A stretch of 11,553 nt of DNA from a virus (Duplodnaviria; Heunggongvirae; Uroviricota; Caudoviricetes): the IMG/VR virus record IMGVR_UViG_3300015179_000018, positions 1-11,553 of that record, one strand, 5' to 3'. Below, piece by piece: positions 1,564 through 11,523 of this stretch; the first letter of the stretch is position 1, and each line of letters begins with the position of its first letter. The notes below the pieces were generated by a model. That model did no database searches. It was not told the origin of the DNA and saw nothing but the letters and a program-made list of their open reading frames with translations. A program made the translations under genes and the position numbers.

Positions 1564-1862
1564 CAAGGGCAGTGCGTATCCATCAATTAAAAATTGCACC
1601 TAAGTATTTCAACGCTGTGGTTGCAGGTCAAAAGACGGCTGAACTTCGTAAAGACGATCGTGGCTATAAAGTTGGTGATGTTCTTTCTCTTTGCGAATGG
1701 AAGCATGGCGTATTTACGGGTAGGGAATGGGCCGCTGTTATCTCTCATGTGCTTCCGGTTAATGACGTCATGGCAGTTTCAGAACAATGGGTGATGCTAT
1801 CAATTCGCCCATTAACTCCATTAGAAGCTTTAGGATATGTTATTGCAGGAGGTGCTGTATGA
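1560..1862 (+). CDS. DUF3850/ASCH-like (PUA-fold) domain protein
   Basis: ATG at 1560 preceded by GGAGG. N-terminus ([37 protein letters not shown]) matches my recollection of the DUF3850 pattern (HELKIWPEYFEAV..GKKTFEVRKNDRDY.VGD). Stop overlaps Dam start (ATGA at 1859-1862). The same ggaggtgctgtatga string precedes both this gene and dam. Confidence 0.7.
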
Positions 1863-2716
1863 GTACCATCCTGAAATGGGCGGGTAATAAAACTGCCATT
1901 ATGTCCGAACTGAAAAAACATCTTCCTGCTGGCCCGCGACTGGTTGAACCTTTCGCGGGTTCCTGTGCTGTGATGATGGAGACGGATTACCCCAGCTATC
2001 TTGTTGCGGATATTAATCCTGATTTAATCAACCTCTATAAAAAGGTTGCTGCTGATTGCGAGGCGTTTATATCTCGTGCCAGAGCTTTATTTGAGGAAGC
2101 AAACAGGGAGTTGGCTTATTACAACATAAGGCAGGAGTTTAATTACTCCACTGAAATTACTGATTTCATGAAAGCGGTATATTTCCTGTATCTCAATCGT
2201 CATGGTTACCGTGGGTTATGTCGTTATAACAAGAGCGGGCATTTCAACATTCCATACGGTAATTATAAAAATCCGTATTTCCCTGAAAAAGAAATTCGCG
2301 CATTTGCAGAGAAAGCCCAGCGAGCAACGTTTATCTGCGCCAGCTTTGATGAAACGCTGGCGATGCTGCAGGTGGGGGATGTGGTGTATTGCGATCCGCC
2401 TTATGACGGTACGTTTTCCGGCTATCACACTGACGGCTTCACTGAAGATGACCAGTATCACCTGGCATCTGTTCTTGAATATCGATCATCAGAAGGTCAT
2501 CCAGTCATTGTTTCTAACAGTGACACATCCCTGATCCGTTCGCTGTATCGAAATTTCACTCACCACTACATCAAGGCAAAACGCAGCATCGGCGTGTCGG
2601 CTGGCGAGAGTAAATCTGCAACAGAAATCATCGCTGTTTCTGGGGCGCGCTGCTGGGTGGGATTTGATCCTTCGCGTGGCGTGGATAGTTCTGCCGTGTA
2701 CGGAGTGCGTGCATGA
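1859..2716 (+). CDS. dam: DNA adenine methyltransferase, Dam/D12 class (N6-adenine, likely GATC-specific)
   Basis: ATG 1859 with GGAGG RBS (1847-1851); the ORF-track start at 1787 is upstream in the same frame. N-terminal KWAGNK and FAGSCAV (AdoMet-binding FxGxG) plus catalytic DPPY (VYCDPPYDG) are hallmark Dam-family motifs. Stop TGA 2714-2716 overlaps gpA ATG 2713. Confidence 0.9.
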
Positions 2717-5127
2717 GCCATGCTGATATGAACAACTGCAGCGGCTTTAACGAGGCCGCCGCAGCATTCTCATGGAACAGCCCGAAAAAGGCTATTAACC
2801 CTTATCTGGACCCGGCGGAAGTTGCGCCGGTTTCTGCGCTTTCAAACCTGATCACTCTGTACGCTGCCGATAACGAGCAGGAACAACTGCGCCGCGAGGC
2901 ACTGAGTGATCAGGTTTGGGAGCGTTATTTCTTTAATGAATCCCGTGATCCTGTCCAGCGCGAAATGGAGCAGGATAAGCTCATTAGCCGGGCAAAGTTG
3001 GCGCATGAGCAGCAGCGTTTTAACCCGGACATGGTCATTCTGGCAGACGTTAACGCCCAGCCTTCCCATATCAGCAGGCCGCTGATGCAACGTATTGAAT
3101 ACTTCAGCAGCCTTGGCAGGCCAAAGGCTTATTCCCGCTATTTGCGTGAGACGATTAAGCCATGTCTGGAACGGCTGGAGCATGTACGCGACAGTCAGCT
3201 ATCCACTTCTTTTCGCTTTATGGCAAGCCATGAAGGGCTGGACGGCCTGCTGATCCTGCCTGAAATGAGTCAGGATCAGGTGAAACGCCTGTCCACCCTT
3301 GTTGCTGCGCATATGAGCATGTGCCTTGATGCAGCTTGTGGCGATTTGTATGCCACCGATGACGTTAAGCCAGAAGAAATCCGCAAGACATGGGAAAAGG
3401 TGGCAGCAGAAACCCTGCGACTGGATGTCATACCGCCTGCGTTTGAGCAACTCCGCCGGAAAAGAAACCGCCGTAAACCCGTGCCCTATGAACTCATTCC
3501 GGGTTCGCTGGCGCGTATGTTGTGCGCCGATTGGTGGTACCGGAAATTATGGAAGATGCGTTGCGAATGGCGGGAAGAGCAGTTGCGTGCTGTTTGCCTG
3601 GTCAGCAAAAAAGCATCTCCCTATGTCAGCTATGAAGCCGTGATGCATAAACGTGAGCAGCGCCGTAAGTCGCTGGAGTTTTTCCGTTCTCATGAACTGG
3701 TGAACGAAGACGGCGACACGCTGGACATGGAGGATGTGGTAAACGCCAGCAGCAGCAACCCTGCGCATCGCCGCAATGAGATGATGGCCTGTGTTAAAGG
3801 TCTGGAGCTTATCGCGGAAATGCGCGGTGACTGCGCCGTTTTCTACACCATCACCTGTCCGTCACGTTTCCATTCCACGCTAAATAACGGCAGGCCCAAC
3901 CCGACCTGGACAAATACGACGGTAAGACAAAGCAGTGATTATCTGGTCGGCATGTTTGCTGCATTTCGTAAGGCGATGCACAAAGCCGGATTGCGCTGGT
4001 ATGGCGTGCGGGTGGCTGAGCCGCATCATGACGGTACAGTTCACTGGCACCTGTTGTGTTTTATGCGCAAAAAAGATCGCCGCACCATTACTGCTTTGTT
4101 GCGTAAGTTTGCCATTCGTGAAGACCGCGAGGAGCTGGGTAATAACACGGGACCACGCTTTAAGTCTGAGCTGATAAACCCGCGCAAAGGTACGCCAACA
4201 AGCTACATCGCGAAATACATCAGTAAGAACATTGACGGGCGTGGTCTGGCTGGCGAGATCAGCAAGGAAACGGGTAAATCCCTGCGTGATAACGCTGAAT
4301 ACGTTAATGCCTGGGCGTCTCTGCATCGTGTTCAGCAATTCCGCTTCTTTGGCATTCCGGGGCGTCAGGCTTACCGTGAACTGCGATTGCTGGCTGGTCA
4401 GGCGGCAAGGCAACAGGGGGACAAAAAAGCAGGTGCGCCGGTACTGGATAACCCGCGCCTTGATGCAATCCTGGCTGCTGCTGATGCTGGTTGTTTTGCC
4501 ACCTACATCATGAAGCAGGGCGGCGTACTGGTTCCCCGCAAATATCACCTCATCAGAACTGCTTATGAAATCAACGAAGAACCGACCGCATATGGCGATC
4601 ACGGTATTCGTATTTATGGCATCTGGTCACCCATTGCAGAGGGCAAGATCTGCACTCATGCGGTGAAGTGGAAAATGGTTCGTAAGGCCGTTGACGTTCA
4701 GGAGGCGGCAGCTGACCAGGGCGCTTGCGCCCCTTGGACTCGTGGCAATAACTGTCCCCTTGCTGAAAATTTGAACCAACAAGGGAAAGACAAATCAGCT
4801 GATGGGGACTCCAGAACGGATATTACCCGTATGAATGACAAGGAGTTGCACGATTACCTGCACAGTATGAGCAAAAAAGAGCGCCGGGAACTGGCTGCAA
4901 GGTTACGCCAGGTGAAACCGAAACGGCGTAAAGACTACAAACAGCGAATTACAGACCATCAGCGACAGCAGCTCGTCTATGAACTGAGGTCCAGAGGATT
5001 TGATGGCAGCGAGAAAGAGGTCGATTTACTCCTTCGCGGCGGCAGTATTCCGTCAGGAGCAGGCCTGCGTATCTTCTATCGGAGCCAGCGTTTGCAGGAA
5101 GATGACAAGTGGCGGAACCTGTATTAA
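2713..5127 (+). CDS. A: Rolling-circle replication initiation endonuclease, P2 gpA family
   Basis: 804 aa. HUH motif ([10 protein letters not shown]) and paired active-site tyrosine motif (YIAKYISKN) typical of P2 gpA-type Rep proteins. Follows dam in a coupled operon, as in P2-like phages. Confidence 0.9.
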
Positions 5128-5196: not shown

Positions 5197-5239
5197 TTTA
5201 CATCAGTAAGATTATTATATACTGTAAATATAAACAGTG
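5197..5239 (+). promoter_or_regulatory. LexA (SOS) operator overlapping a candidate sigma70 promoter for the downstream small-ORF/DinI-like genes
   Basis: TACTGTAAATATAAACAGTG at 5220-5239 is a CTGT-N8-ACAG palindrome close to the LexA consensus TACTGT(AT)4ACAGTA. Candidate -35 TTTACA (5197-5202) and -10 TATACT (5218-5223) overlap the box. A strong RBS AGGAGG (5271-5276) precedes ATG 5281. Confidence 0.65.
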
Positions 5240-5280
5240 GTTATGTATACAGTGTTGCTTGTGGTGTCATAGGAGGAAAG

Positions 5281-5469
5281 ATGCAGGACTATTTTTTGGA
5301 GTCTTTGAAGCTCCAGCGCATTGATTTTTTTCTTAAGCTTGTAGCGGCTAGTGAGTGTAGTGATGAAGAGAAGGGGCTGGCTCTGCAGTGGGTTTCTGAA
5401 CTGACAGATGAACTCATGGCAAAAATCAGAACCCACGAATACAACCGCTCAATGGATGTCATCAGCTGA
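5281..5469 (+). CDS. Small SOS-inducible protein (62 aa), possible Tum-like antirepressor N-terminal module
   Basis: ATG 5281 preceded by AGGAGG and by the LexA box; the ORF-track ORF 5179-5469 extends upstream across the operator and so is too long. Function is inferred only from position before the DinI-like gene (phage 186 SOS operon analogy). Confidence 0.5.
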   Translation: MQDYFLESLKLQRIDFFLKLVAASECSDEEKGLALQWVSELTDELMAKIRTHEYNRSMDVIS

Positions 5470-5479
5470 GGTGACTTTT

Positions 5480-5713
5480 ATGCGCATTGAAATAATGATC
5501 GATAAAGAGCAGAAGATTAGCCAGTCTACACTGGACGCCCTTGAATCCGAGCTTTACCGCAATCTGCGCCCCCTGTATCCCAAAACGGTAATTCGTATCC
5601 GCAAAGGTAGCTCTAATGGTGTGGAACTGACCGGACTGCAACTGGACGAAGAAAGAAAACAAGTGATGAAAATTATGCAGAAGGTGTGGGAAGACGACAG
5701 CTGGCTGCATTAA
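5480..5713 (+). CDS. DinI-like protein (SOS/RecA modulator family; Tum C-terminal-like)
   Basis: 77 aa starting MRIEIMIDKEQKIS...LDALESEL...VWEDDSWLH; closely parallels E. coli DinI (MRIEVTIAKTSPLP...IDALAGEL...TWESADDWF) from memory. RBS GAGGTGA 6 nt upstream. Start is an internal ATG of ORF-track ORF 5408-5713. Confidence 0.85.
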   Translation: MRIEIMIDKEQKISQSTLDALESELYRNLRPLYPKTVIRIRKGSSNGVELTGLQLDEERKQVMKIMQKVWEDDSWLH

Positions 5714-5872
5714 GAAACGTTGCTGGCGTCTGAACTTGCTTCTGGCGTCAGCAAGGTTGAACAACGAGTACAGTGAGGCGTTAGGTGTGGCGTTTATTTG
5801 ATGAGTGAACGCCCGTTCTGCGACAGGTTCGGAGATTAAGGTTGAAACTACGGGAAAAATACCATCTTTTTC

Positions 5873-6298
5873 CTACTTAATTGAGTCCAGTAACAAGTTA
5901 CAGTTACTCTCATTGTAGAGAGAACGAGCAATTAGTGTTACCTGCTTTCCATTCATTCCCGGCTTATCCCATAACACAGCTTCTTGCGACGCCACAAATT
6001 CAGCATAATCAATTATGCGTTGTTCGTGATCTGGTTCCTCATAGCCAAAGTATGAGAGCGCATCGTTGTAAGCGTGGTAAGCTGCTTTCTGTAATATCTT
6101 GATATCGGCTGTAGGTACTTGCTCCGTGTAGCTAGGATCTAATTGTGTGCTACTGCCATAGAATGCACATGAAAGGTAAGATATTGATTTCTGTTGAGCT
6201 TTAGTTCCTTTCTCATAGTTTTTAGCTGTTACCGCCTGAACTGGGACGCTAACAAAGCTTGCAACCAGAATTAAAATTAATACGTAAAAGCTTTTCAT
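5873..6298 (-). CDS. Secreted/periplasmic protein of unknown function with N-terminal Sec signal peptide (141 aa)
   Basis: N-terminus MKSFYVLILILVASFVSVPVQA-VTAK: positively charged n-region, hydrophobic core, AxA-like cleavage site (VQA), no lipobox Cys. RBS GAGG upstream on the minus strand. Gene is visibly AT-richer than flanking phage genes. Confidence 0.7.
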   Translation of the reverse strand: MKSFYVLILILVASFVSVPVQAVTAKNYEKGTKAQQKSISYLSCAFYGSSTQLDPSYTEQVPTADIKILQKAAYHAYNDALSYFGYEEPDHEQRIIDYAEFVASQEAVLWDKPGMNGKQVTLIARSLYNESNCNLLLDSIK

Positions 6299-6571
6299 TT
6301 TGACCTCAGCCGAAACGTTAGAGAGACTATCGAAATTTGTAAAACCCGTGGCGATTCAGTTTGAGATCCTCCCCCTTACATGATTTTTAATCAAATATAT
6401 GCTTTTGTAAGCATACCTGTTAACCGAATTATTTATTTTTAGAGATCTTCCGACATACTGATTATGCCCGCTGAGGAGTTCACCTTGCGTAAAGTCCGAT
6501 TCGCTTTACTCGTCTGTGCATGTCTATACTGCATGAGATTGCATGATCGTTTGAGGATCGTTTTTGCTAAG

Positions 6572-6596
6572 GCCCGCCAGTTCTGGCGGGCTTTTG
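6572..6596 (+). terminator. GC-rich hairpin followed by T-run (intrinsic-terminator-like), + strand
   Basis: gcccgcca-gttc-tggcgggc perfect 8-bp stem followed by ttttg. No obvious upstream + strand gene; may terminate an uncharacterised transcript or be part of the cos/packaging region. Confidence 0.45.
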
Positions 6597-6640
6597 CGTA
6601 GATCATGCACCTGCATGAAAACCACTACATAAAGCGGGCA

Positions 6641-6659
6641 GGCGTGGCGGGGATACGAG
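6641..6659. other. Candidate cos (cohesive end) site of the P2/186 type
   Basis: GGCGTGGCGGGGATACGAG at 6641-6659 closely resembles the 19-nt cohesive ends I recall for P2 (GGCGAGGCGGGGAAAGCAC) and 186 (GGCGTGGCGGGGAAAGCAT). It forms a GC-rich island in an AT-rich intergenic region between the replication side and the portal/terminase side. Confidence 0.45.
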
Positions 6660-6811
6660 CGCGCGCTAAGTCATATAAGAGTTATATATTGATTTGATTG
6701 CTGGACATGCATACAGTATCGCTCTATCATCTAATAAATCTTAGAGTATTTGACAATGTTTGGATAAAATGGAACCTAACTTATTCATAATCCGCTAAAC
6801 AGGGATGTCAG

Positions 6812-7726
6812 ATGCCATACCAATTGGTAGAGCTTAGCCCCGTAGCTAACGATCTTGAACAGTTAGGAACCAAAGAGAAGTTTTGGTTCTATTTCTCCGA
6901 TGACACTGTAAATTTGCAGTTGTTTAAGTACTCTAGGCCAGGTACTGGCGAGCATTGGTCTGAAAAGTGTGCTGCTGAGTTATGTCATTTGCTTAACATT
7001 CCACATGCTAGCTATGATTTGGCGCGATACAATGGTCGATTCGGTGTGGTGACTCAGAATATCATTCCATCTGGTTTCCGGATGGTAATGGGAAATGAAG
7101 TGCTTCACAGTTCGACATTCGATTATCCTGGGCCTTTACAAGCCGGGGAAAAGCCGGTAAGGGTCAGAGAACACACTGTCACAAGGGTATTGGGTTGTTT
7201 GGATAGGGAATCTATCAAGCCTCCTCCGAGTGTATATGATCTAACCGGGCTAAATGCAGCAGATGTATTTTGTGGATATTTGATGCTCGATGCACTTGTG
7301 AGTAATCAAGATCGCCATCATGAAAATTGGGCGATCATGCTTAACAATGAAACTGGTGAGCAGTTTTTGTGTCCAACATACGATCATGCCGCTAGTTTAG
7401 GAAGGGAGATGTTAGATGATGAGCGTAACGAACGGCTTAATACTAAAGATAAAAATCGACAAATCCCATGTTTTGTAAGAAAAGCTCGCTCTGAGCTATT
7501 CAAAGCAAAAACTGATAAAAAGCCCTTGCTGACCGTTGAAGCATTTCAACATGCAGTTGAAGGGAGAGTTGCCGCTCGCGACCATTGGTTAGGTAAGTTG
7601 AGCGTTTTAACAGAAGATTCCATTACAGATGTGTTTAACCAAGTGCCTTCATCGTGTATATCCGACAGTGCACGTAGATTTGCAACGTTAATGGTAATGG
7701 AAAATCGCAGAAGGTTACTAGAATGA
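6812..7726 (+). CDS. HipA-family-like Ser/Thr protein kinase core (HipT-like, lacking HipA N-terminal subdomain); candidate toxin/defence effector
   Basis: 304 aa. Gly-rich loop LGTKEKF (res 18-24) resembles the HipA P-loop (VAGAQEKT). Catalytic-loop-like SNQDRHHENW (res 164-173, nt 7301-7330) fits the N-x-D-x-H-x-x-N pattern of HipA/CtkA kinases, with downstream YDHAAS as a putative metal-binding Asp. RBS AGGGA before ATG 6812. Stop TGA overlaps the next ATG (ATGA at 7723-7726). Confidence 0.6.
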   Translation: MPYQLVELSPVANDLEQLGTKEKFWFYFSDDTVNLQLFKYSRPGTGEHWSEKCAAELCHLLNIPHASYDLARYNGRFGVVTQNIIPSGFRMVMGNEVLHSSTFDYPGPLQAGEKPVRVREHTVTRVLGCLDRESIKPPPSVYDLTGLNAADVFCGYLMLDALVSNQDRHHENWAIMLNNETGEQFLCPTYDHAASLGREMLDDERNERLNTKDKNRQIPCFVRKARSELFKAKTDKKPLLTVEAFQHAVEGRVAARDHWLGKLSVLTEDSITDVFNQVPSSCISDSARRFATLMVMENRRRLLE

Positions 7727-8463
7727 CTAATACAAACTCCGTTTACGTCGCATGGCAGGCACCAGATACCAGAGACTGGCATGTTGTTGGTAACTTGCAA
7801 GAGCGCAAATCGGGGTATGTTTTCAGGTATACCAAAGGTGCTCTTAAATCTACTAAATTTACAAAGTTTAGCGGCATGAGTGATGTTCGTGAAACTTATG
7901 TTTCGGAAGAATTGTTTCCTCTTTTTAAAAATCGCCTTTTATCACCGAGACGTCCAGAGTATCCGAGTTTCATTAAATGGCTTGGATTTGAAGAAGATAA
8001 GGTAAATCCTATCGATATTCTTGCTCGCTCGGGAGGCTTACGAAGCACTGATCAGCTGCAGATTTTCAAAAAAATTGATGTTGATTCTGATGGTAACTTT
8101 GAGCATTTTTTCTTCTTACATGGACTTGGTTACTTAAATAGCTTAGCTAATGCTCGTGTATCTGAATTGAAACCGGGGCAAATTTTGCGTCTTTGCTTGG
8201 ATCTTCAAAATGAATACGATGGGGATGCTGTTGTCGTTCGTGCAGATAAACCAGCTGAAATCGTTGGTTACTGCCCCAGGTATTTAAGTAATGATATCAA
8301 GAAGATGTTATTGGATGATCCAAAATCAATCACTTTAACGGTCGAAAAGATTAGCGATGATGCTCCTCATAACTATCGGTTATTATGTAAATTATCAGGA
8401 GTACTAAGCCAAGCCTGTCAATCGACGCTGATTCCTCAGGATGAGTTTGAACCTATTGAGTAA
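7723..8463 (+). CDS. Kinase-partner protein: N-terminal HipA-N/HipS-like region plus C-terminal HIRAN-like domain (tentative)
   Basis: 246 aa, translationally coupled to the kinase gene. C-terminal segment GLGY...LRLCLDLQNEYDGDAVVVRADKPAEIVGYCPRYLSNDIKKMLLD parallels the HIRAN signature (VGLRYY...LQRDPNNPYDKNAIKV...VGHLKKELAGALAYIMD). The N-terminal 110 aa (VYVAW..VVGNL..YVFRY..LFPLFKNRLLSPRR..ILARSGG) loosely resembles the HipA N-terminal subdomain. Both by eye only. Confidence 0.6.
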   Translation: MTNTNSVYVAWQAPDTRDWHVVGNLQERKSGYVFRYTKGALKSTKFTKFSGMSDVRETYVSEELFPLFKNRLLSPRRPEYPSFIKWLGFEEDKVNPIDILARSGGLRSTDQLQIFKKIDVDSDGNFEHFFFLHGLGYLNSLANARVSELKPGQILRLCLDLQNEYDGDAVVVRADKPAEIVGYCPRYLSNDIKKMLLDDPKSITLTVEKISDDAPHNYRLLCKLSGVLSQACQSTLIPQDEFEPIE

Positions 8464-8471
8464 ATGAAGAA

Positions 8472-8497
8472 AAGCCACCAAACGGTGGCTTTTCTTA
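8472..8497. terminator. Bidirectional intrinsic terminator between the convergent cargo operon and portal gene Q
   Basis: aagccacc-aaac-ggtggctt hairpin (8472-8491) with T-rich tract on the + strand (tttctt) and, on the reverse complement, ttttctt after the same stem. Lies exactly between the stop at 8463 (+) and the stop at 8498 (-). Confidence 0.6.
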
Positions 8498-9535
8498 TTA
8501 TGGGACTATATCTAGCGAGTAGGTATTAAACTGTATCGCCTCCTTGCCAAGCCAATCATTCATCTCCTGTAATCGCTTTTGTAGTGGCATTAGTTCATTT
8601 CGCACAAAAACTCGACTCGCCTTCTCTACATCCCCAAACCCACCGACATTATTAGGCATAATCCCCATCATCTGAGGCGGTACGCGGTGTGCAGCCATCA
8701 TGTCGTCCCGGCTCACGTTCTTGATGTTCAGAAATTCATCTTTCGCTGCGACTTCTGACAACGGGATGATCTGAAGCCCGTCCTTTTTGCCGTTAGGCGA
8801 GTACATAAACAGGTTGCGGAAGTTGCCAGGGCCTTTGGCGCTTTTCATCGCGTTGCGGAGGTTGTTCACATCTTCCTGGTTCTGCGCGGCGTCGGTCATA
8901 TACATGATGAAGCCTGCATGACTGCCGTTAATGTAATACTTGCGGCGGAACAGCGTGGCAGACTCGTTGAGCAGGGCGGATGGAATAGCAGAAAGATAAC
9001 CGGGCAGGCCGTAGATCTCCTGGTTGATGTCCGGTTCCATCAGATGAAAGATGCTGCCTTTCGTGAACTGATATGGCTGCGTGGTCATACCGTATTGCAC
9101 AAACCAGTAGGTATCCAGGTCTAACCCGCGTCGGGTGTATTTTGCCAAGGCAGGTTCAAGGGCGATAACTTCACCGAAGCGGTTCGTGCGTTTCTCCAGG
9201 TAGGCGTTACCAAATACCAGATAGTCCTGCACAAAACGCGAAAAAGCCTGCTGGCTGAGCAGCGGGTGAGGGATGTAGGTGCTGGTCAGAATGTTGCACT
9301 TTACTGCAATCGGGGAACTATGATGAACGGCAGCGCGGAAGGTGCGCGCCAGTCCGTCAAAGCTGACGGGCGGCTCATACCAGCGGTCCATCTGTACGCA
9401 TTCCACATAATCCAGCAGTTCTCGGCGGTCCAGAACAGGAACGGGATCGCCGAAGCTGAATGCTTCGGCTGTAGTTTGACTTTTAAGCTGGATCTGTTTC
9501 GTCGCCGCAGCGCGGTTCTTCTTACTCTTTCCCAT
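8498..9535 (-). CDS. Q: Portal protein (P2 gpQ family)
   Basis: About 345 aa, minus strand, immediately downstream of and overlapping (TGATG) the terminase ATPase gene, the conserved P2 P-Q arrangement. ATG at 9533-9535 with GGAG RBS; the ORF-track start at 9538 is a TTG one codon upstream. Confidence 0.88.
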   Translation of the reverse strand: MGKSKKNRAAATKQIQLKSQTTAEAFSFGDPVPVLDRRELLDYVECVQMDRWYEPPVSFDGLARTFRAAVHHSSPIAVKCNILTSTYIPHPLLSQQAFSRFVQDYLVFGNAYLEKRTNRFGEVIALEPALAKYTRRGLDLDTYWFVQYGMTTQPYQFTKGSIFHLMEPDINQEIYGLPGYLSAIPSALLNESATLFRRKYYINGSHAGFIMYMTDAAQNQEDVNNLRNAMKSAKGPGNFRNLFMYSPNGKKDGLQIIPLSEVAAKDEFLNIKNVSRDDMMAAHRVPPQMMGIMPNNVGGFGDVEKASRVFVRNELMPLQKRLQEMNDWLGKEAIQFNTYSLDIVP

Positions 9536-11301
9536 CAAAAAATCTCCACAATATTGCTGGTATTGGCGGATTCGCCCTGCAGCGGTTCGTTAAACAGTGC
9601 GTGCATCGTTGCCCAGGCCAGATCGGCGTGGCTGGCTTCTTCGCTGCGGCTGGCTTCATAGGTCGGGCGGTTGCCACTGGCGGTGGTGGCGCGACGGATT
9701 GCCATAAAGGACTGCGCTATGTCGGTGTGTCCGGCGTCAAACTCCAGACGGCGGTGGCTGATAATGTCGTAGGCCTTGAGTACCAGGGCGTTTTTAACGT
9801 TGGGGTTGTAGACAAACTCCCGGACGGCAGGAAAAAACGCTTTCACGTTCTCGTAAACCCCGTGACCAACGCCGGTTGAGTCGATACCGATATAGGTCAC
9901 GTTGTACTGTTCGGTCAGTTTTTTGATGGCGTCAGCCTGGGCGCGGAAGTCCATTCCGCGCCACTGGTGACGCTCAAGAATGCGGAACTTACCGCCCGGC
10001 ACGGCTGGCGGCGCCACCACCACGCATCCGGCGCTGTCGCCGTTCTGCGTACCTTTCGCCGGGTCATATCCGATCCACACTTCGCGCCAGCCAAACGGGC
10101 GCAGGGCCAGTGCATGAAAGTCGGTCCAGACTTCCCAACTGTCCACCATGCACGCCTGCAGCTCGCTGAGTGGGAACACAGACGCGAGATCGTCCACGAA
10201 CTCACACATCAGCAGGTTTTGGTATTCGTCCGGGCTGTACTCCATGCGCAACTGGTCGAGGTCGAACAGGTTACAGCCGCCGCGCACCGCATCTTCCACA
10301 GTGACTATCTGGCGGTACTGCCCGTCTGCGCACAGCAGGCCGGGGGCCAGATTGCTGTGGGACAGGTCGATGTCCACCTTATCGGCTTTGTTGCGCCCTC
10401 GGTTGAACAGCGCACCGGACCAGAACGGATAAGCACTGTGTGTCAGGCTGGATGGCGTGGAAAAATAGGTTTGTCGCCATTTTTTGTGAATAGCCATACC
10501 GGAAGCCACTTTGCGCAGCTCCTGGAATTTCGGTATCCAGAAATATTCATCCAGATACAGGTTGCCGTGGTAACTCTGGGCCGTGCGGGCATTGGTGCCG
10601 AGGAAGTACAGCGTGGCCCCGTTAGGAAGCACCATCGGATCGCCTTTCAGCTCCACCTCCACTTCTTTGGCGAAGTCGATGATGTACTGCTTAAAGACGT
10701 GGGCCTGAGCCTTGCTGGCGGAAAGGAAAATCTGGTTACGCCCGGTTAGCAGGGCGTCAATCAGGGCTTCACGGGCAAAATAGAAGGTCGCGCCGATCTG
10801 GCGTGACTTCAGCAGGTTGCGGATGCGGTTGGTTTTTCCGGCTTCCCACCAGTGGCGCTGGTAGTTGAACATGGAGGAATGGAAGATTTCTTCCAACTTC
10901 TCAATCTGTTCATCGGTGAAAACGTTCTTTTCCGGCTGACGGCGCGGGCCTTTGTTGCGGTTGGCGACGTTAGGGTTTAAGTCGGCTTCGTTGCCGCCAT
11001 TGTTAAACTTGCCGATCCGCGCATGGCGCTCCGACTGGCGCGCCAGCAGGTCAATCTCTTTGAAATCTTTCCCTTCTTTGTGCTCCTTCATAATGAGCTG
11101 GCAGTAGCGTGCGGCGGTGGTGAGCTGCATCTGATCCAGCGGCCCATAGTCACCCCACTTGTCGCGTTTTTTCCAGCTGTGAACGGTTGCAACTTTCTCG
11201 CCCAGCATTTCAGCAATGCGAGCTACGCGGTATCCCTGAAAGTACAGCAGCATGGCCTGCCGACGGGGATCGAGATCTGCGGGTGTCAGTGTGGTGTTCA
11301 T
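9535..11301 (-). CDS. P: Terminase large (ATPase) subunit, P2 gpP family
   Basis: 588 aa, minus strand, divergent from the O start. N-terminal HTH-like segment (LLYFQGYRVARIAEMLGEKVATVHSWKKR) typical of terminase DNA-binding N-termini; size and position match P2 gpP. The true start could be the internal ATG at 11251-11253 (M17). Confidence 0.88.
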   Translation of the reverse strand: MNTTLTPADLDPRRQAMLLYFQGYRVARIAEMLGEKVATVHSWKKRDKWGDYGPLDQMQLTTAARYCQLIMKEHKEGKDFKEIDLLARQSERHARIGKFNNGGNEADLNPNVANRNKGPRRQPEKNVFTDEQIEKLEEIFHSSMFNYQRHWWEAGKTNRIRNLLKSRQIGATFYFAREALIDALLTGRNQIFLSASKAQAHVFKQYIIDFAKEVEVELKGDPMVLPNGATLYFLGTNARTAQSYHGNLYLDEYFWIPKFQELRKVASGMAIHKKWRQTYFSTPSSLTHSAYPFWSGALFNRGRNKADKVDIDLSHSNLAPGLLCADGQYRQIVTVEDAVRGGCNLFDLDQLRMEYSPDEYQNLLMCEFVDDLASVFPLSELQACMVDSWEVWTDFHALALRPFGWREVWIGYDPAKGTQNGDSAGCVVVAPPAVPGGKFRILERHQWRGMDFRAQADAIKKLTEQYNVTYIGIDSTGVGHGVYENVKAFFPAVREFVYNPNVKNALVLKAYDIISHRRLEFDAGHTDIAQSFMAIRRATTASGNRPTYEASRSEEASHADLAWATMHALFNEPLQGESANTSNIVEIF

Positions 11302-11347
11302 GGCACAAACCTACAGCCTTGAATGAAGGCTTTCCCCGCCTGCGGTT

Positions 11348-11365
11348 TGTGTGGTTGTCGGTACA
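11348..11365. promoter_or_regulatory. TGT-N12-ACA dyad, candidate Ogr/Delta-type late-promoter activator site in the P/O divergent region
   Basis: TGTgtggttgtcggtACA at 11348-11365. P2-family late promoters carry a TGT-N12-ACA element centred near -55; the centre here is about 88 bp upstream of the O start codon at 11444. Confidence 0.4.
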
Positions 11366-11443
11366 AATACCGCGCATTGTTTCACTGCCCCCATCACCGC
11401 AACCATAAGGCTCCAGTAAGTTTTTTCTAACGGAGCACGGCTC

Positions 11444-11523
11444 ATGACAGTGAAAGCAAAGCGTTTTCGCATCGGGGTGGAAGGTGCCACCACCGACGGA
11501 CGCGAAATCCAGCGTGAATGGCT
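11444..11523 (+). CDS. O: Capsid scaffolding protein (P2 gpO family), 5' fragment truncated by adapter
   Basis: ATG 11444 after GGAG (11432-11435). Translation MTVKAKRFRIGVEGATTDGREIQREW resembles the gpO N-terminus (KFFRIGVEGDTCDGR) as I recall it; divergent from P as in P2. The reading frame runs into adapter sequence at 11524. Confidence 0.6.

What the first reader, a model, noticed from the sequence alone, without database searches (positions are those of the whole stretch)
6812..8463. Candidate two-gene kinase-based defence or TA-like system in the P2 variable region: HipA-core kinase plus HIRAN-domain partner
Two translationally coupled genes (ATGA overlap at 7723-7726), clearly AT-richer than the flanking phage core genes, sit between the cos-like site and the portal gene Q. 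This is the variable region where P2 itself carries old and tin and where other P2-like prophages are reported to carry diverse anti-phage systems. Gene 1 shows the hallmark HipA-family kinase motifs (P-loop-like GTKEKF, catalytic NQDRHHEN, downstream YDH) but is only 304 aa, i.e. it lacks the HipA N-terminal subdomain, as in HipT of HipBST. Gene 2 is not a canonical HipB/HipS antitoxin. I do not recognise this pairing as a named defence system, so it may be a new HipA-like kinase abortive-infection or toxin-antitoxin-like module carried as phage cargo.
Basis: partly seen in the sequence, partly recalled or inferred. Interest (0 to 1): 0.85.

Follow-up and report, generated by a model that had tools for sequence, protein, structure and literature searches.

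The report
Known HipA-like kinase/HIRAN prophage module
The two genes are a real HipA-family kinase and its HipS-like/HIRAN partner carried as cargo by a P2/186-like E. coli prophage, but the pair is already catalogued (hipIN, PADLOC PDC-M03, "HIRAN-kinase"), has no published test that I could find, and the only new point here is a predicted SOS (LexA) control of its promoter.

Summary
Two overlapping genes (6812-7726 and 7723-8463, ATGA overlap) with 41% GC lie between a 186-type cos site (6641-6659) and the portal gene of a P2/186-like prophage.

This is the "hipIN" organisation of Gerdes et al. 2021. It matches PADLOC candidate PDC-M03 (E 2e-122 and 3e-93). Both proteins are identical to WP_001146828 and WP_000185757, which Rousset et al. 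2022 already list in P2 hotspots. So the pair is not new, but I found no experimental test of it.

The partner follows the kinase in 79 of 80 loci from many phyla and several kinds of mobile element.

One new point: a LexA box overlaps the predicted promoter and recurs 79-105 nt upstream of the kinase in 12 of 13 Enterobacterales loci. This predicts SOS induction.

Most likely mechanism: an SOS-gated, DNA-3'-end-sensing kinase switch that arrests growth, probably as abortive infection.

The parts
6566..6597 (+). Terminator-like G+C-rich hairpin (GCTAAGGCCCGCCAG / CTGGCGGGCTTTTGC) that closes the cargo slot to the left of cos
   Evidence: Inverted repeat with 15-nt arms, 87% complementary; sequence read. 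It lies inside the block 6516-6674, which is conserved at up to 93.7% in P2-like phages.
6641..6659 (.). cos-like cohesive-end sequence of the prophage (GGCGTGGCGGGGATACGAG). It marks the left boundary of the cargo slot that holds the operon.
   Evidence: The first 13 nt are identical to the annotated cos of phage 186 (U32222), and the site is followed by CGCGCGC as in P2 and 186. Similarity to P2-like phages ends at about 6674.
6699..6718 (.). Predicted LexA (SOS) box TGCTGGACATGCATACAGTA, overlapping the -35 element and spacer of the operon promoter
   Evidence: The PWM score is 19.4 bits; genuine E. coli boxes score 12.9-27.0. Boxes of the same type (18.8-27.4 bits) lie 79-105 nt before the kinase ATG in 12 of 13 Enterobacterales loci, including loci whose flanks cannot be aligned and loci in different genomic contexts. 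The recA and ruvA (CTGG...CCAG) training sites were verified in MG1655. LexA binding was not tested.
6702..6730 (+). Sigma-70-type promoter-like site (TGGACA, 17 nt, TATCAT)
   Evidence: The consensus scan matches 10 of 12 positions. A TAnnnT hexamer 5-10 nt after the LexA box recurs in orthologous loci. This is an inference; no transcript data are available.
6812..7726 (+). hipI-type gene: a short HipA-family Ser/Thr kinase (304 aa; identical to WP_001146828). Motifs: Gly-rich loop G19-T20-K21-E22-K23, K39, catalytic D167-x-H169-x-x-N172, Mg-binding D191.
   Evidence: PADLOC PDC-M03A E 2e-122. Pfam HipA_C in 32 of 32 members. AF2 model with pLDDT 84; Foldseek hits to CtkA, HipA and HipT. The profile hit to CtkA aligns D167 with D155 and D191 with D179. 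Motifs are conserved in 77-80 of 80 loci.
7723..8463 (+). hipN-type gene (246 aa; identical to WP_000185757): HipS-like domain (about residues 1-120) fused to a HIRAN domain (about residues 125-230). Translationally coupled to the kinase gene through an ATGA overlap.
8467..8496 (.). Hairpin AAGAAAAGCCACC-AAAC-GGTGGCTTTTCTT between the two convergent stop codons. Probably a bidirectional terminator for the operon and for the portal/terminase operon (the counterpart of tQ in P2 and tW in 186).
   Evidence: Sequence read. P2 and 186 have an annotated terminator at the equivalent place, just after the portal stop.

Best explanation
The locus is a hipIN-type module (PADLOC PDC-M03; the 'HIRAN-kinase' of Rousset et al.). 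It is carried as AT-rich cargo between cos and the portal gene of a P2/186-like E. coli prophage.

Shown by tool results:
- Gene 1 encodes a core HipA-family Ser/Thr kinase that lacks N-subdomain-1.
- Gene 2, translationally coupled to it, encodes the missing HipS-like domain fused to a HIRAN domain.
- The pair is strictly conserved as a unit across phyla and moves between different mobile elements.
- In Enterobacterales a LexA-type box overlaps the promoter.

Inferred mechanism:
1. LexA keeps the operon low in undamaged lysogens, and the SOS response derepresses it.
2. The two proteins are made together. [quoted passage not shown]
3. The HIRAN domain binds free DNA 3' ends. These could come from incoming or replicating phage DNA, or from broken or processed DNA.
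4. That binding releases or re-orients the kinase.
5. The kinase phosphorylates an essential target. By analogy with HipA (target GltX) and HipT (target TrpS), this is probably an aminoacyl-tRNA synthetase.
6. Translation and growth stop. This aborts infection by competing phages, or imposes dormancy under DNA damage.
For: Identity:
- PADLOC PDC-M03A E 2e-122 and PDC-M03B E 3e-93.
- Kinase fold matches CtkA, HipA and HipT.
- The CtkA profile alignment places D167, N172 and D191 on the catalytic and Mg-binding motifs.
- The partner has HipS-like and HIRAN folds.
- The hipIN description in PMC8262856 fits in size, gene order and domains.
- Both proteins are identical to those listed in Rousset Table S5.

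Functional coupling:
- The partner lies immediately downstream in 79 of 80 loci, and in 75 of 75 with enough sequence. Spacing is mostly -13 to +18 nt.
- Catalytic and HIRAN motif residues are conserved in more than 90% of loci at 35-100% identity.

Mobility and cargo status:
- GC is 0.41 against 0.52-0.57 in flanking phage genes.
- The same pair occurs in P2-like prophages of Klebsiella, Serratia and Pantoea, in a P4-like island, in a lambdoid prophage, in a tail-gene moron, in an integrase island beside FitAB and Fic, and as bare two-gene islets.

SOS control:
- LexA boxes are found in 12 of 13 Enterobacterales loci at a constant distance from the kinase start. In each of the five loci fetched afterwards (about 6.9 kb each) the box is the best or second-best PWM position.

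Precedent:
- DS-6 is a validated HipA-family kinase defence system whose protection needs the catalytic residue.
- Gerdes et al. proposed HIRAN sensing of phage DNA ends.
Against: - I found no experimental data for any hipIN or PDC-M03 member. Gerdes Table 1 lists 'None' for clade XI, and DefensePredictor calls PDC systems unvalidated.
- The kinase target, the toxicity of the kinase, its neutralisation by HipN, and DNA binding by the HIRAN domain are all inferred.
- The HipS-like domain could be needed for kinase activity rather than for inhibition, because in HipA the equivalent subdomain is part of the enzyme.
- Many defence genes are expressed constitutively, so a LexA box fits an SOS-stress or prophage-induction role at least as well as a defence role.
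- The LexA box is absent from Vibrio, Pseudomonas, Providencia and non-proteobacterial loci. SOS control is therefore not a family-wide feature.
Confidence: 0.6

Rival explanations
1. The module is an SOS-induced dormancy or prophage-service module, not an anti-phage system. On this reading, DNA damage derepresses the operon together with the prophage's LexA-controlled tum-like antirepressor operon. The kinase then arrests or reprograms host translation, either to survive DNA damage as persisters or to favour the prophage's own induction. The HIRAN domain would target stalled or regressed forks.
For: A LexA box sits on the promoter and is conserved in 12 of 13 Enterobacterales loci. A perfect LexA box also precedes the neighbouring DinI/Tum-like operon at 5220-5239. 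From background knowledge: HipA is the archetypal persistence kinase, eukaryotic HIRAN domains act at stalled forks, and several E. coli TA loci are LexA-regulated. Some copies are bare chromosomal islets with no mobile-element context, in Vibrio cholerae and Proteus.
Against: The pair sits overwhelmingly in prophage and satellite cargo slots that are known to be enriched for defence genes (Rousset 2022). Non-enterobacterial members lack the LexA box. A related HipA-family kinase system is a proven defence. The two readings do not exclude each other.
Confidence: 0.25
2. HipN is a targeting or activating subunit rather than an antitoxin. The HipS-like domain would complete the kinase, as N-subdomain-1 does in HipA. 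The HIRAN domain would tether the holo-kinase to DNA 3' ends, where it would phosphorylate DNA-bound phage or host replication or recombination proteins. The effect would be local and not toxic to the whole cell.
Against: In the only characterised split system (HipBST), free HipS inhibits HipT (PMC8262856). All known HipA-family targets are cytosolic aminoacyl-tRNA synthetases. No HipA-family kinase is known to act on DNA-bound substrates.
Confidence: 0.2
3. The pair is a plain addiction (post-segregational killing) module that stabilises the prophage or island and senses no DNA or phage. The HIRAN domain would simply replace HipB as the DNA-binding autoregulator.
For: The architecture is TA-like and there is no HTH gene. 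The pair is carried on many kinds of mobile element.
Against: HIRAN domains recognise DNA 3' ends rather than specific operators (background knowledge; PMC8262856). No inverted or direct repeats other than the LexA-type box occur in the promoter region. Regulation appears to be supplied by host LexA. Some copies are chromosomal islets with nothing to stabilise.
Confidence: 0.1
4. One reading: a previously unrecognised, unnamed kinase-based defence or TA system.
For: RefSeq labels gene 1 'hypothetical protein' in most genomes. NCBIfam has no model for either protein. PHROGs lists both as unknown function.
Against: The system is named and described as hipIN, PDC-M03 and 'HIRAN-kinase'. The identical proteins are already listed at this very hotspot.
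Confidence: 0.03

Closest known systems
hipIN modules (HipI kinase + HipN), Gerdes, Baerentsen & Brodersen 2021, mBio (PMC8262856)
   Same: A short core kinase with the Gly-rich loop near the N-terminus (304 aa here; family range 279-321). The partner gene lies downstream of the kinase. The partner is a HipS-like domain plus a HIRAN domain. There is no HipB. The homologue distribution (Proteobacteria plus Cyanobacteria) matches their fourth HipI subclade.
   Different: Nothing in the architecture differs. Their 14 examples were not linked to P2 prophages, and they did not report LexA boxes. Direct placement in their tree was not possible because no reference sequences were available.
PADLOC-DB v2 phage defence candidate PDC-M03 (A + B)
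   Same: Both proteins match the PDC-M03 HMMs over their full length (E 2e-122 and 3e-93), and the genes are adjacent.
   Different: None. PDC systems are candidates without experimental validation.
'HIRAN-kinase' and P2 hotspot cargo, Rousset et al. 2022 (PMC9122126)
   Same: [quoted passage not shown] Table S5 lists WP_001146828 + WP_000185757, which are identical to the window's proteins, among gpA-gpQ arrangements.
   Different: They did not clone or test it. The HipA-containing P2 system they did test (pFR108, 'Exonuclease + HipA') is a different system.
HipBST of E. coli O127 and HipS-HipT of Legionella (structures 7ab3, 7vkb, 8ezr)
   Different: Here there is no HipB. The gene order is reversed, with the kinase first. 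The HipS-like domain is fused to HIRAN. The Gly-rich loop has a single Thr (GTKEK) instead of HipT's SIS motif (the latter from memory). The target is unknown.
HipBA (E. coli K-12 HipA/HipB)
   Same: The same kinase superfamily, with the same catalytic D-x-H-x-x-N and Mg-binding Asp.
   Different: HipA is about 440 aa and carries its own N-subdomain. Its antitoxin is the HTH protein HipB, encoded upstream. It has no HIRAN domain.
DS-6 (DefensePredictor, bioRxiv 10.1101/2025.01.08.631726)
   Same: A two-gene system with a HipA-family kinase and a non-HipB partner. Anti-phage defence is validated and depends on the kinase's catalytic residue. It shows that this kinase family can act in defence.
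   Different: The partner carries DUF3037 and DUF1829, not HipS-like and HIRAN domains. It is not the same system.

Membership tests
hipIN (Gerdes et al. 2021) | Short HipA-homologous kinase (279-321 aa) that lacks N-subdomain-1, with the Gly-rich loop close to the N-terminus | tested here: met
   The protein is 304 aa and its Gly-rich loop is at residues 19-23. The model aligns to the core kinase of CtkA, HipA and HipT only.
hipIN (Gerdes et al. 2021) | Conserved Hip kinase motifs: Gly-rich loop, catalytic motif and Mg2+-binding motif | tested here: met
   GTKEK, D167-R-H-H-E-N172 and Y-D191-H are invariant in A1 and present in 75-80 of 80 loci. They align to CtkA NFDRHNGNW and FD. The activation loop was not mapped individually.
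hipIN (Gerdes et al. 2021) | The gene immediately downstream encodes a two-domain protein: N-terminal HipS-like domain plus C-terminal HIRAN domain | tested here: met
hipIN (Gerdes et al. 2021) | Kinase falls in main clade XI, HipI subclade, of the Hip tree | not tested
Only indirect support exists: the homologues are a mix of Proteobacteria and Cyanobacteria, like their fourth HipI subclade.
hipIN (Gerdes et al. 2021) | Toxin-antitoxin behaviour: the kinase is toxic and HipN neutralises it | not testable with these tools
   The paper itself only hypothesises this. No experimentally analysed module exists in clade XI.
PADLOC PDC-M03 | Adjacent genes that match the PDC-M03A and PDC-M03B HMMs | tested here: met
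   E 2.1e-122 (residues 2-304 against 4-300 of a 305-position model) and E 3.4e-93 (residues 1-244 against 1-241 of 245). The genes overlap by 4 nt.
HipBST | Tricistronic hipB-hipS-hipT operon with an HTH HipB and a stand-alone HipS of about 100 aa upstream of the kinase | tested here: not met
   No HTH ORF lies between cos and gene 1. The kinase gene comes first. The HipS-like domain is fused to HIRAN.
HipBA | HipA of about 440 aa with its own N-terminal subdomains, and an upstream HipB antitoxin | tested here: not met
   The kinase is 304 aa. The Couple_hipA signal is in gene 2, not gene 1. There is no HipB.
DS-6 (DefensePredictor) | The kinase's partner carries DUF3037 and DUF1829 | tested here: not met
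   The partner matches only HIRAN and Couple_hipA in Pfam.
LexA (SOS) regulon of Enterobacterales | A 20-nt CTGT-N8-ACAG-type palindrome that overlaps the promoter and is conserved in orthologous promoters | tested here: met
   The box at 6699-6718 scores 19.4 bits. Twelve of 13 Enterobacterales loci have boxes of 18.8-27.4 bits at 79-105 nt before the ATG, with diverged flanks. The PWM came from recalled sites, of which two were verified.
LexA (SOS) regulon of Enterobacterales | LexA binding and SOS-dependent induction | not testable with these tools
   This needs EMSA or ChIP and reporter assays.

The most novel reading that the evidence does not exclude
The module is an SOS-gated kinase switch that senses DNA 3' ends. 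LexA derepression loads the cell with an inactive HipI-HipN complex. HIRAN binding to free 3'-OH ends of phage or broken DNA then releases a PI3K/HipA-fold kinase, which shuts down translation. This would be a bacterial, phage-borne functional analogue of eukaryotic signalling from DNA ends to a kinase (Ku/DNA-PK, ATM). It would also be the first defence or dormancy system shown to use a HIRAN domain as a nucleic-acid pattern receptor.
Probability: 0.25. Interest if true: 0.75.

Novelty: already known. Interest (0 to 1): 0.4.

Why it matters
As a discovery it adds little. The gene pair, its domain logic, its candidate-defence status and its presence at this exact P2 hotspot are all in the literature and in PADLOC.

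It still matters in two ways.

First, I found no experimental test of any hipIN or PDC-M03 member, although the family is widespread. The partner profile finds 313 clusters (50% identity) at E <= 1e-30 and about 1000 at E <= 1e-10. This copy sits in a native, genetically tractable E. coli prophage. It is therefore a convenient entry point for testing whether a HIRAN domain can act as a DNA-end sensor that controls a HipA-type kinase.

Second, the conserved LexA box found here gives a concrete, cheap and falsifiable prediction: SOS induction. It also bears on how such systems should be assayed. A standard plaque assay without DNA damage could miss a LexA-repressed system.

Tried and rejected
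- **Single-sequence and profile HMM searches of PDB.** For gene 1, single-sequence phmmer gave only a marginal CtkA hit (E 0.43); the family profile reached CtkA at E 3e-4 but not HipA or HipT. For gene 2, the full-length, N-domain and C-domain profiles did not reach HipS, HipA or HLTF by sequence. The top hits, gamma-crystallin and YCF1, are chance matches. Only fold comparison resolved these relationships.
- **NCBIfam.** No meaningful hit.
- **PHROGs.** Both proteins fall in families of unknown function.
- **Rfam.** Nothing in the window.
- **INPHARED phages.** No near-identical copy of the operon.
- **Kinase-HipN fusions ('Rosetta stone' evidence).** I looked among the best 150 representatives of the partner family and found none. 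P0270 is a secretin/HIRAN chimera, probably an artefact. P0255 has an extra C-terminal region with only a weak REase-like hit. HipL fusions are known only from the paper.
- **HipB-type operators.** No inverted or direct repeats in the promoter region except the LexA-type box and the upstream terminator.
- **Exact P2 cos sequence.** No match with up to 3 mismatches. The site is of the 186 type and diverges after 13 nt.
- **Literature.** Ten searches found no experimental study. Many 'HIRAN' hits were the surname Hirano.
- **Named validated systems.** PD-T4-6, Stk2-type kinases and other validated systems were considered. PADLOC returned only PDC-M03 models.
Full report
**1. Observation.**
The window carries the early and replication region of a P2/186-like prophage. 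It has a Dam methylase (1787-2716) and replication protein gpA (2713-5127; Pfam Phage_GPA E 7e-127). On the minus strand it has the portal gene (8498-9538) and the large terminase (9535-11301).

They overlap through ATGA at 7723-7726. The operon has GC 0.413, against 0.53 (gpA), 0.519 (portal) and 0.57 (terminase).

A cos-type sequence, GGCGTGGCGGGGATACGAG, lies at 6641-6659. Its first 13 nt equal the annotated cohesive end of phage 186, and it is followed by CGCGCGC as in P2 and 186. In P2 and 186 only about 170-190 bp, holding a terminator, separate cos from the portal stop codon. Here that spacer is 1.84 kb and holds the operon. P2's own old and tin genes lie on the other side of cos.

**2. 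What the proteins are.**
*Gene 1.*
- Pfam HipA_C is weak for this sequence (E 3.6e-4, below the gathering score). It matches all 32 aligned family members, best E 1.3e-8.
- A family profile hits the H. pylori HipA-like kinase CtkA (E 3e-4). The alignment places NQD167RHHEN172W on NFD155RHNGN160W and YD191H on FD179C.
- The AlphaFold2 model (pLDDT 83.9, pTM 0.86) matches CtkA (E 1.5e-10, TM 0.68-0.75). It then matches E. coli and Shewanella HipA (E about 1e-6 to 1e-4) and HipT/HipS-HipT structures (7wcf, 7vkc, 8ezr; E about 1e-4).
- The Gly-rich loop G19-T20-K21-E22-K23, K39, the D-x-H-x-x-N motif and D191 are invariant in the alignment. They are present in 75-80 of 80 loci at 35-100% identity.
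- Gene 1 is therefore an intact, probably active, core HipA-family Ser/Thr kinase without N-subdomain-1.

*Gene 2.*
- Pfam HIRAN matches residues 127-228 (E 1e-13). Couple_hipA matches residues 20-72 weakly (E 0.018) and is seen in 21 of 32 members.
- The model (pLDDT 89.1) has two domains.
- The HIRAN signature Q-N163-x-Y/H/F-D166-x-x-A169 is conserved. It aligns to lp_0118 NQYDDNA. From memory, it corresponds to the pocket of HLTF that binds the DNA 3'-OH.
Gene 2 is a HipS-like domain fused to HIRAN.

**3. It is a known, named candidate.**
- PADLOC-DB v2 models PDC-M03A and PDC-M03B match at E 2e-122 and 3e-93 over the full length.
- Gerdes, Baerentsen and Brodersen (mBio 2021, PMC8262856) defined 'hipIN': short HipI kinases (279-321 aa) with a downstream HipN made of a HipS-like domain plus HIRAN. 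They proposed that HIRAN senses phage DNA ends to activate the kinase for abortive infection. No member of that clade has been analysed experimentally.
- The window's proteins are identical to WP_001146828 and WP_000185757. Both appear in Rousset et al. 2022 Table S5 as arrangements in the P2 gpA-gpQ hotspot.
[quoted passage not shown] It is not among the systems they cloned.
- A 2025 NAR paper notes HipA + HIRAN clusters next to diDNase genes and cites them as predicted defence.
- The DefensePredictor preprint says PDC systems are unvalidated. It validates a different HipA-family kinase system, DS-6, whose defence needs the catalytic residue.
- Ten literature searches found no experimental study of hipIN or PDC-M03.

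**4. Distribution and coupling.**
- The near-identical 1.8 kb segment is present in 21 of 5,426 complete E. coli genomes. It is always chromosomal and, in the 15 hits listed, next to a portal gene. It is absent from INPHARED phage records.
- Compared with strain SCU-115, similarity covers 6513-11523 (cos, operon, portal, terminase) and the replication region. It breaks at 5458-6512. The slot to the left of cos therefore varies independently of the operon.
- A scan of one genome per species returned 80 loci from Gammaproteobacteria, Cyanobacteria, Deltaproteobacteria, Acidobacteria, Planctomycetes, Clostridia and others.
- The two-domain partner lies directly downstream on the same strand in 79 of 80 loci. 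The exception is cut by a contig end. It is present in 75 of 75 loci with at least 700 nt available. Spacing is mostly -13 to +18 nt.
- The partner family has 313 clusters (50% identity) at E <= 1e-30 and 1,008 at E <= 1e-10. Almost all are stand-alone proteins of 235-270 aa.
- Contexts of the pair:
  - P2-like prophages of Klebsiella, Serratia and Pantoea, at the same site;
  - a P4-like AlpA/DUF3987/primase island in E. coli;
  - a lambdoid prophage in Enterobacter;
  - a tail-gene moron in Yersinia;
  - an integrase island next to FitAB and Fic in Pseudomonas;
  - bare two-gene islets in Vibrio cholerae and Proteus.
- This is the behaviour of a self-contained mobile accessory module.

**5. 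A new detail: predicted SOS control.**
- The best promoter-like site upstream of gene 1 is TGGACA-17-TATCAT at 6702-6730. A LexA-type palindrome, TGCTGGACATGCATACAGTA (6699-6718), overlaps it.
- By count alone, one-mismatch CTGT-N8-ACAG sites are not enriched in the window: 6 were found against 3.6 expected.
- The element is nevertheless preserved in orthologous promoters, while its centre and its flanks diverge.
- A PWM built from 20 E. coli LexA boxes scores genuine boxes at 12.9-27.0 bits. The recA box and the CTGG...CCAG ruvA box were verified in MG1655.
- With this PWM the window's site scores 19.4 bits. Boxes of 18.8-27.4 bits lie 79-105 nt before the kinase ATG in 12 of 13 Enterobacterales loci.
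- Those 12 include five loci fetched afterwards as an independent test (Serratia, Pantoea, Yersinia, Enterobacter, Proteus). In each of these the box is the best or second-best position in about 6.9 kb.
- They also include loci whose flanks cannot be aligned (16-35% identity).
- Providencia, Vibrio, Pseudomonas and non-proteobacterial loci lack such a box.
- Neither the Gerdes paper nor a final literature search mentions this.
- I therefore predict that enterobacterial hipIN operons are LexA-repressed and SOS-induced. This is an inference from sequence only.

**6. Mechanism.**
*Shown:* a conserved active-site kinase; a HipS-fold plus HIRAN partner; strict co-inheritance and translational coupling; cargo status on mobile elements; a LexA-type box at the promoter.

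*Inferred:* the HipS-like domain binds and restrains the kinase as HipS restrains HipT. HIRAN binding to free DNA 3' ends relieves this. The kinase then phosphorylates an essential translation factor, by analogy with HipA (GltX) and HipT (TrpS), and causes growth arrest or abortive infection. LexA adds an upstream gate, so the complex accumulates when ssDNA-RecA signalling is on.

*My estimates:* identity as hipIN/PDC-M03 about 0.95; SOS control about 0.75; antitoxin-like role of the HipS domain about 0.6; anti-phage function about 0.5.

*Rivals:* an SOS-linked dormancy or prophage-service role; HipN as a targeting or activating subunit; plain addiction.

**7. Verdict.**
The finding is real and correctly located, and the kinase and HIRAN calls are right. 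It is not a new system. It is an already catalogued, still unvalidated candidate (hipIN, PDC-M03, 'HIRAN-kinase'). The residual interest is moderate. It rests on a tractable E. coli instance of an uncharacterised but widespread family, and on a new, testable prediction of SOS control.

Noticed in passing
window 5220-5713: A perfect LexA box (TACTGTAAATATAAACAGTG, 5220-5239) precedes a small ORF (ATG 5282, phrog_698) and a DinI-like gene (Pfam DinI E 1e-22; its likely true start is ATG 5483, after GAGGTG). This resembles the SOS-controlled tum antirepressor operon of phage 186 (the 186 comparison is from memory). The prophage is probably SOS-inducible.
   Followed up: partly
window 5873-6298 (minus strand): A 141-aa ORF with an N-terminal signal-peptide-like segment (MKSFYVLILILVASFVSVPVQA). 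It belongs to phrog_7437 (unknown function) and has no Pfam or PADLOC hit. It lies in the cargo slot to the left of cos. That slot differs from strain SCU-115, which has an unrelated 870-nt gene there.
   Followed up: partly
window 6740-6770, and the same position in L095, L008, L009 and L010: A second conserved block lies downstream of the LexA box, within the presumed 5' leader: CTTAGrGTwTTTGrC..GTTTGGwTAAAAT. It could be a second promoter or a leader element. Its TTGACA/TAAAAT spacing (9 nt) does not fit a standard sigma-70 promoter.
   Followed up: no
window 1787-2716: A D12-class Dam-type adenine methyltransferase (Pfam E 2e-76) lies directly upstream of gpA and overlaps it. It may be a phage-borne anti-restriction or regulatory methylase.
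   Followed up: no
L100 (Yersinia), L101 (Enterobacter), L002-L007 (E. coli): The same kinase/HIRAN pair occurs as a moron in unrelated mobile elements. These are the tail-gene region of a Yersinia prophage, the replication-to-RusA/Q region of a lambdoid prophage, and a P4-like AlpA/DUF3987/primase island next to a CDI (two-partner secretion) locus. The three sampled for the motif (L100, L101, L002) each carry their own LexA box.
   Followed up: partly
protein P0255 (408 aa): A HipN homologue with a C-terminal extension of about 180 aa that gives a weak hit to a PIWI-associated restriction-endonuclease domain (E 0.0017). It may be a HipN-nuclease variant. P0270 is a secretin/HIRAN chimera and is probably an assembly or gene-calling artefact.
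   Followed up: no
gene 1 model, residues 18-20 and 96-118: The only low-confidence parts of the kinase model are the Gly-rich loop (G19-T20) and a loop of about 20 residues (96-118). A mobile Gly-rich loop with a conserved Thr fits regulation by autophosphorylation, as in HipA and HipT (background knowledge).
   Followed up: no
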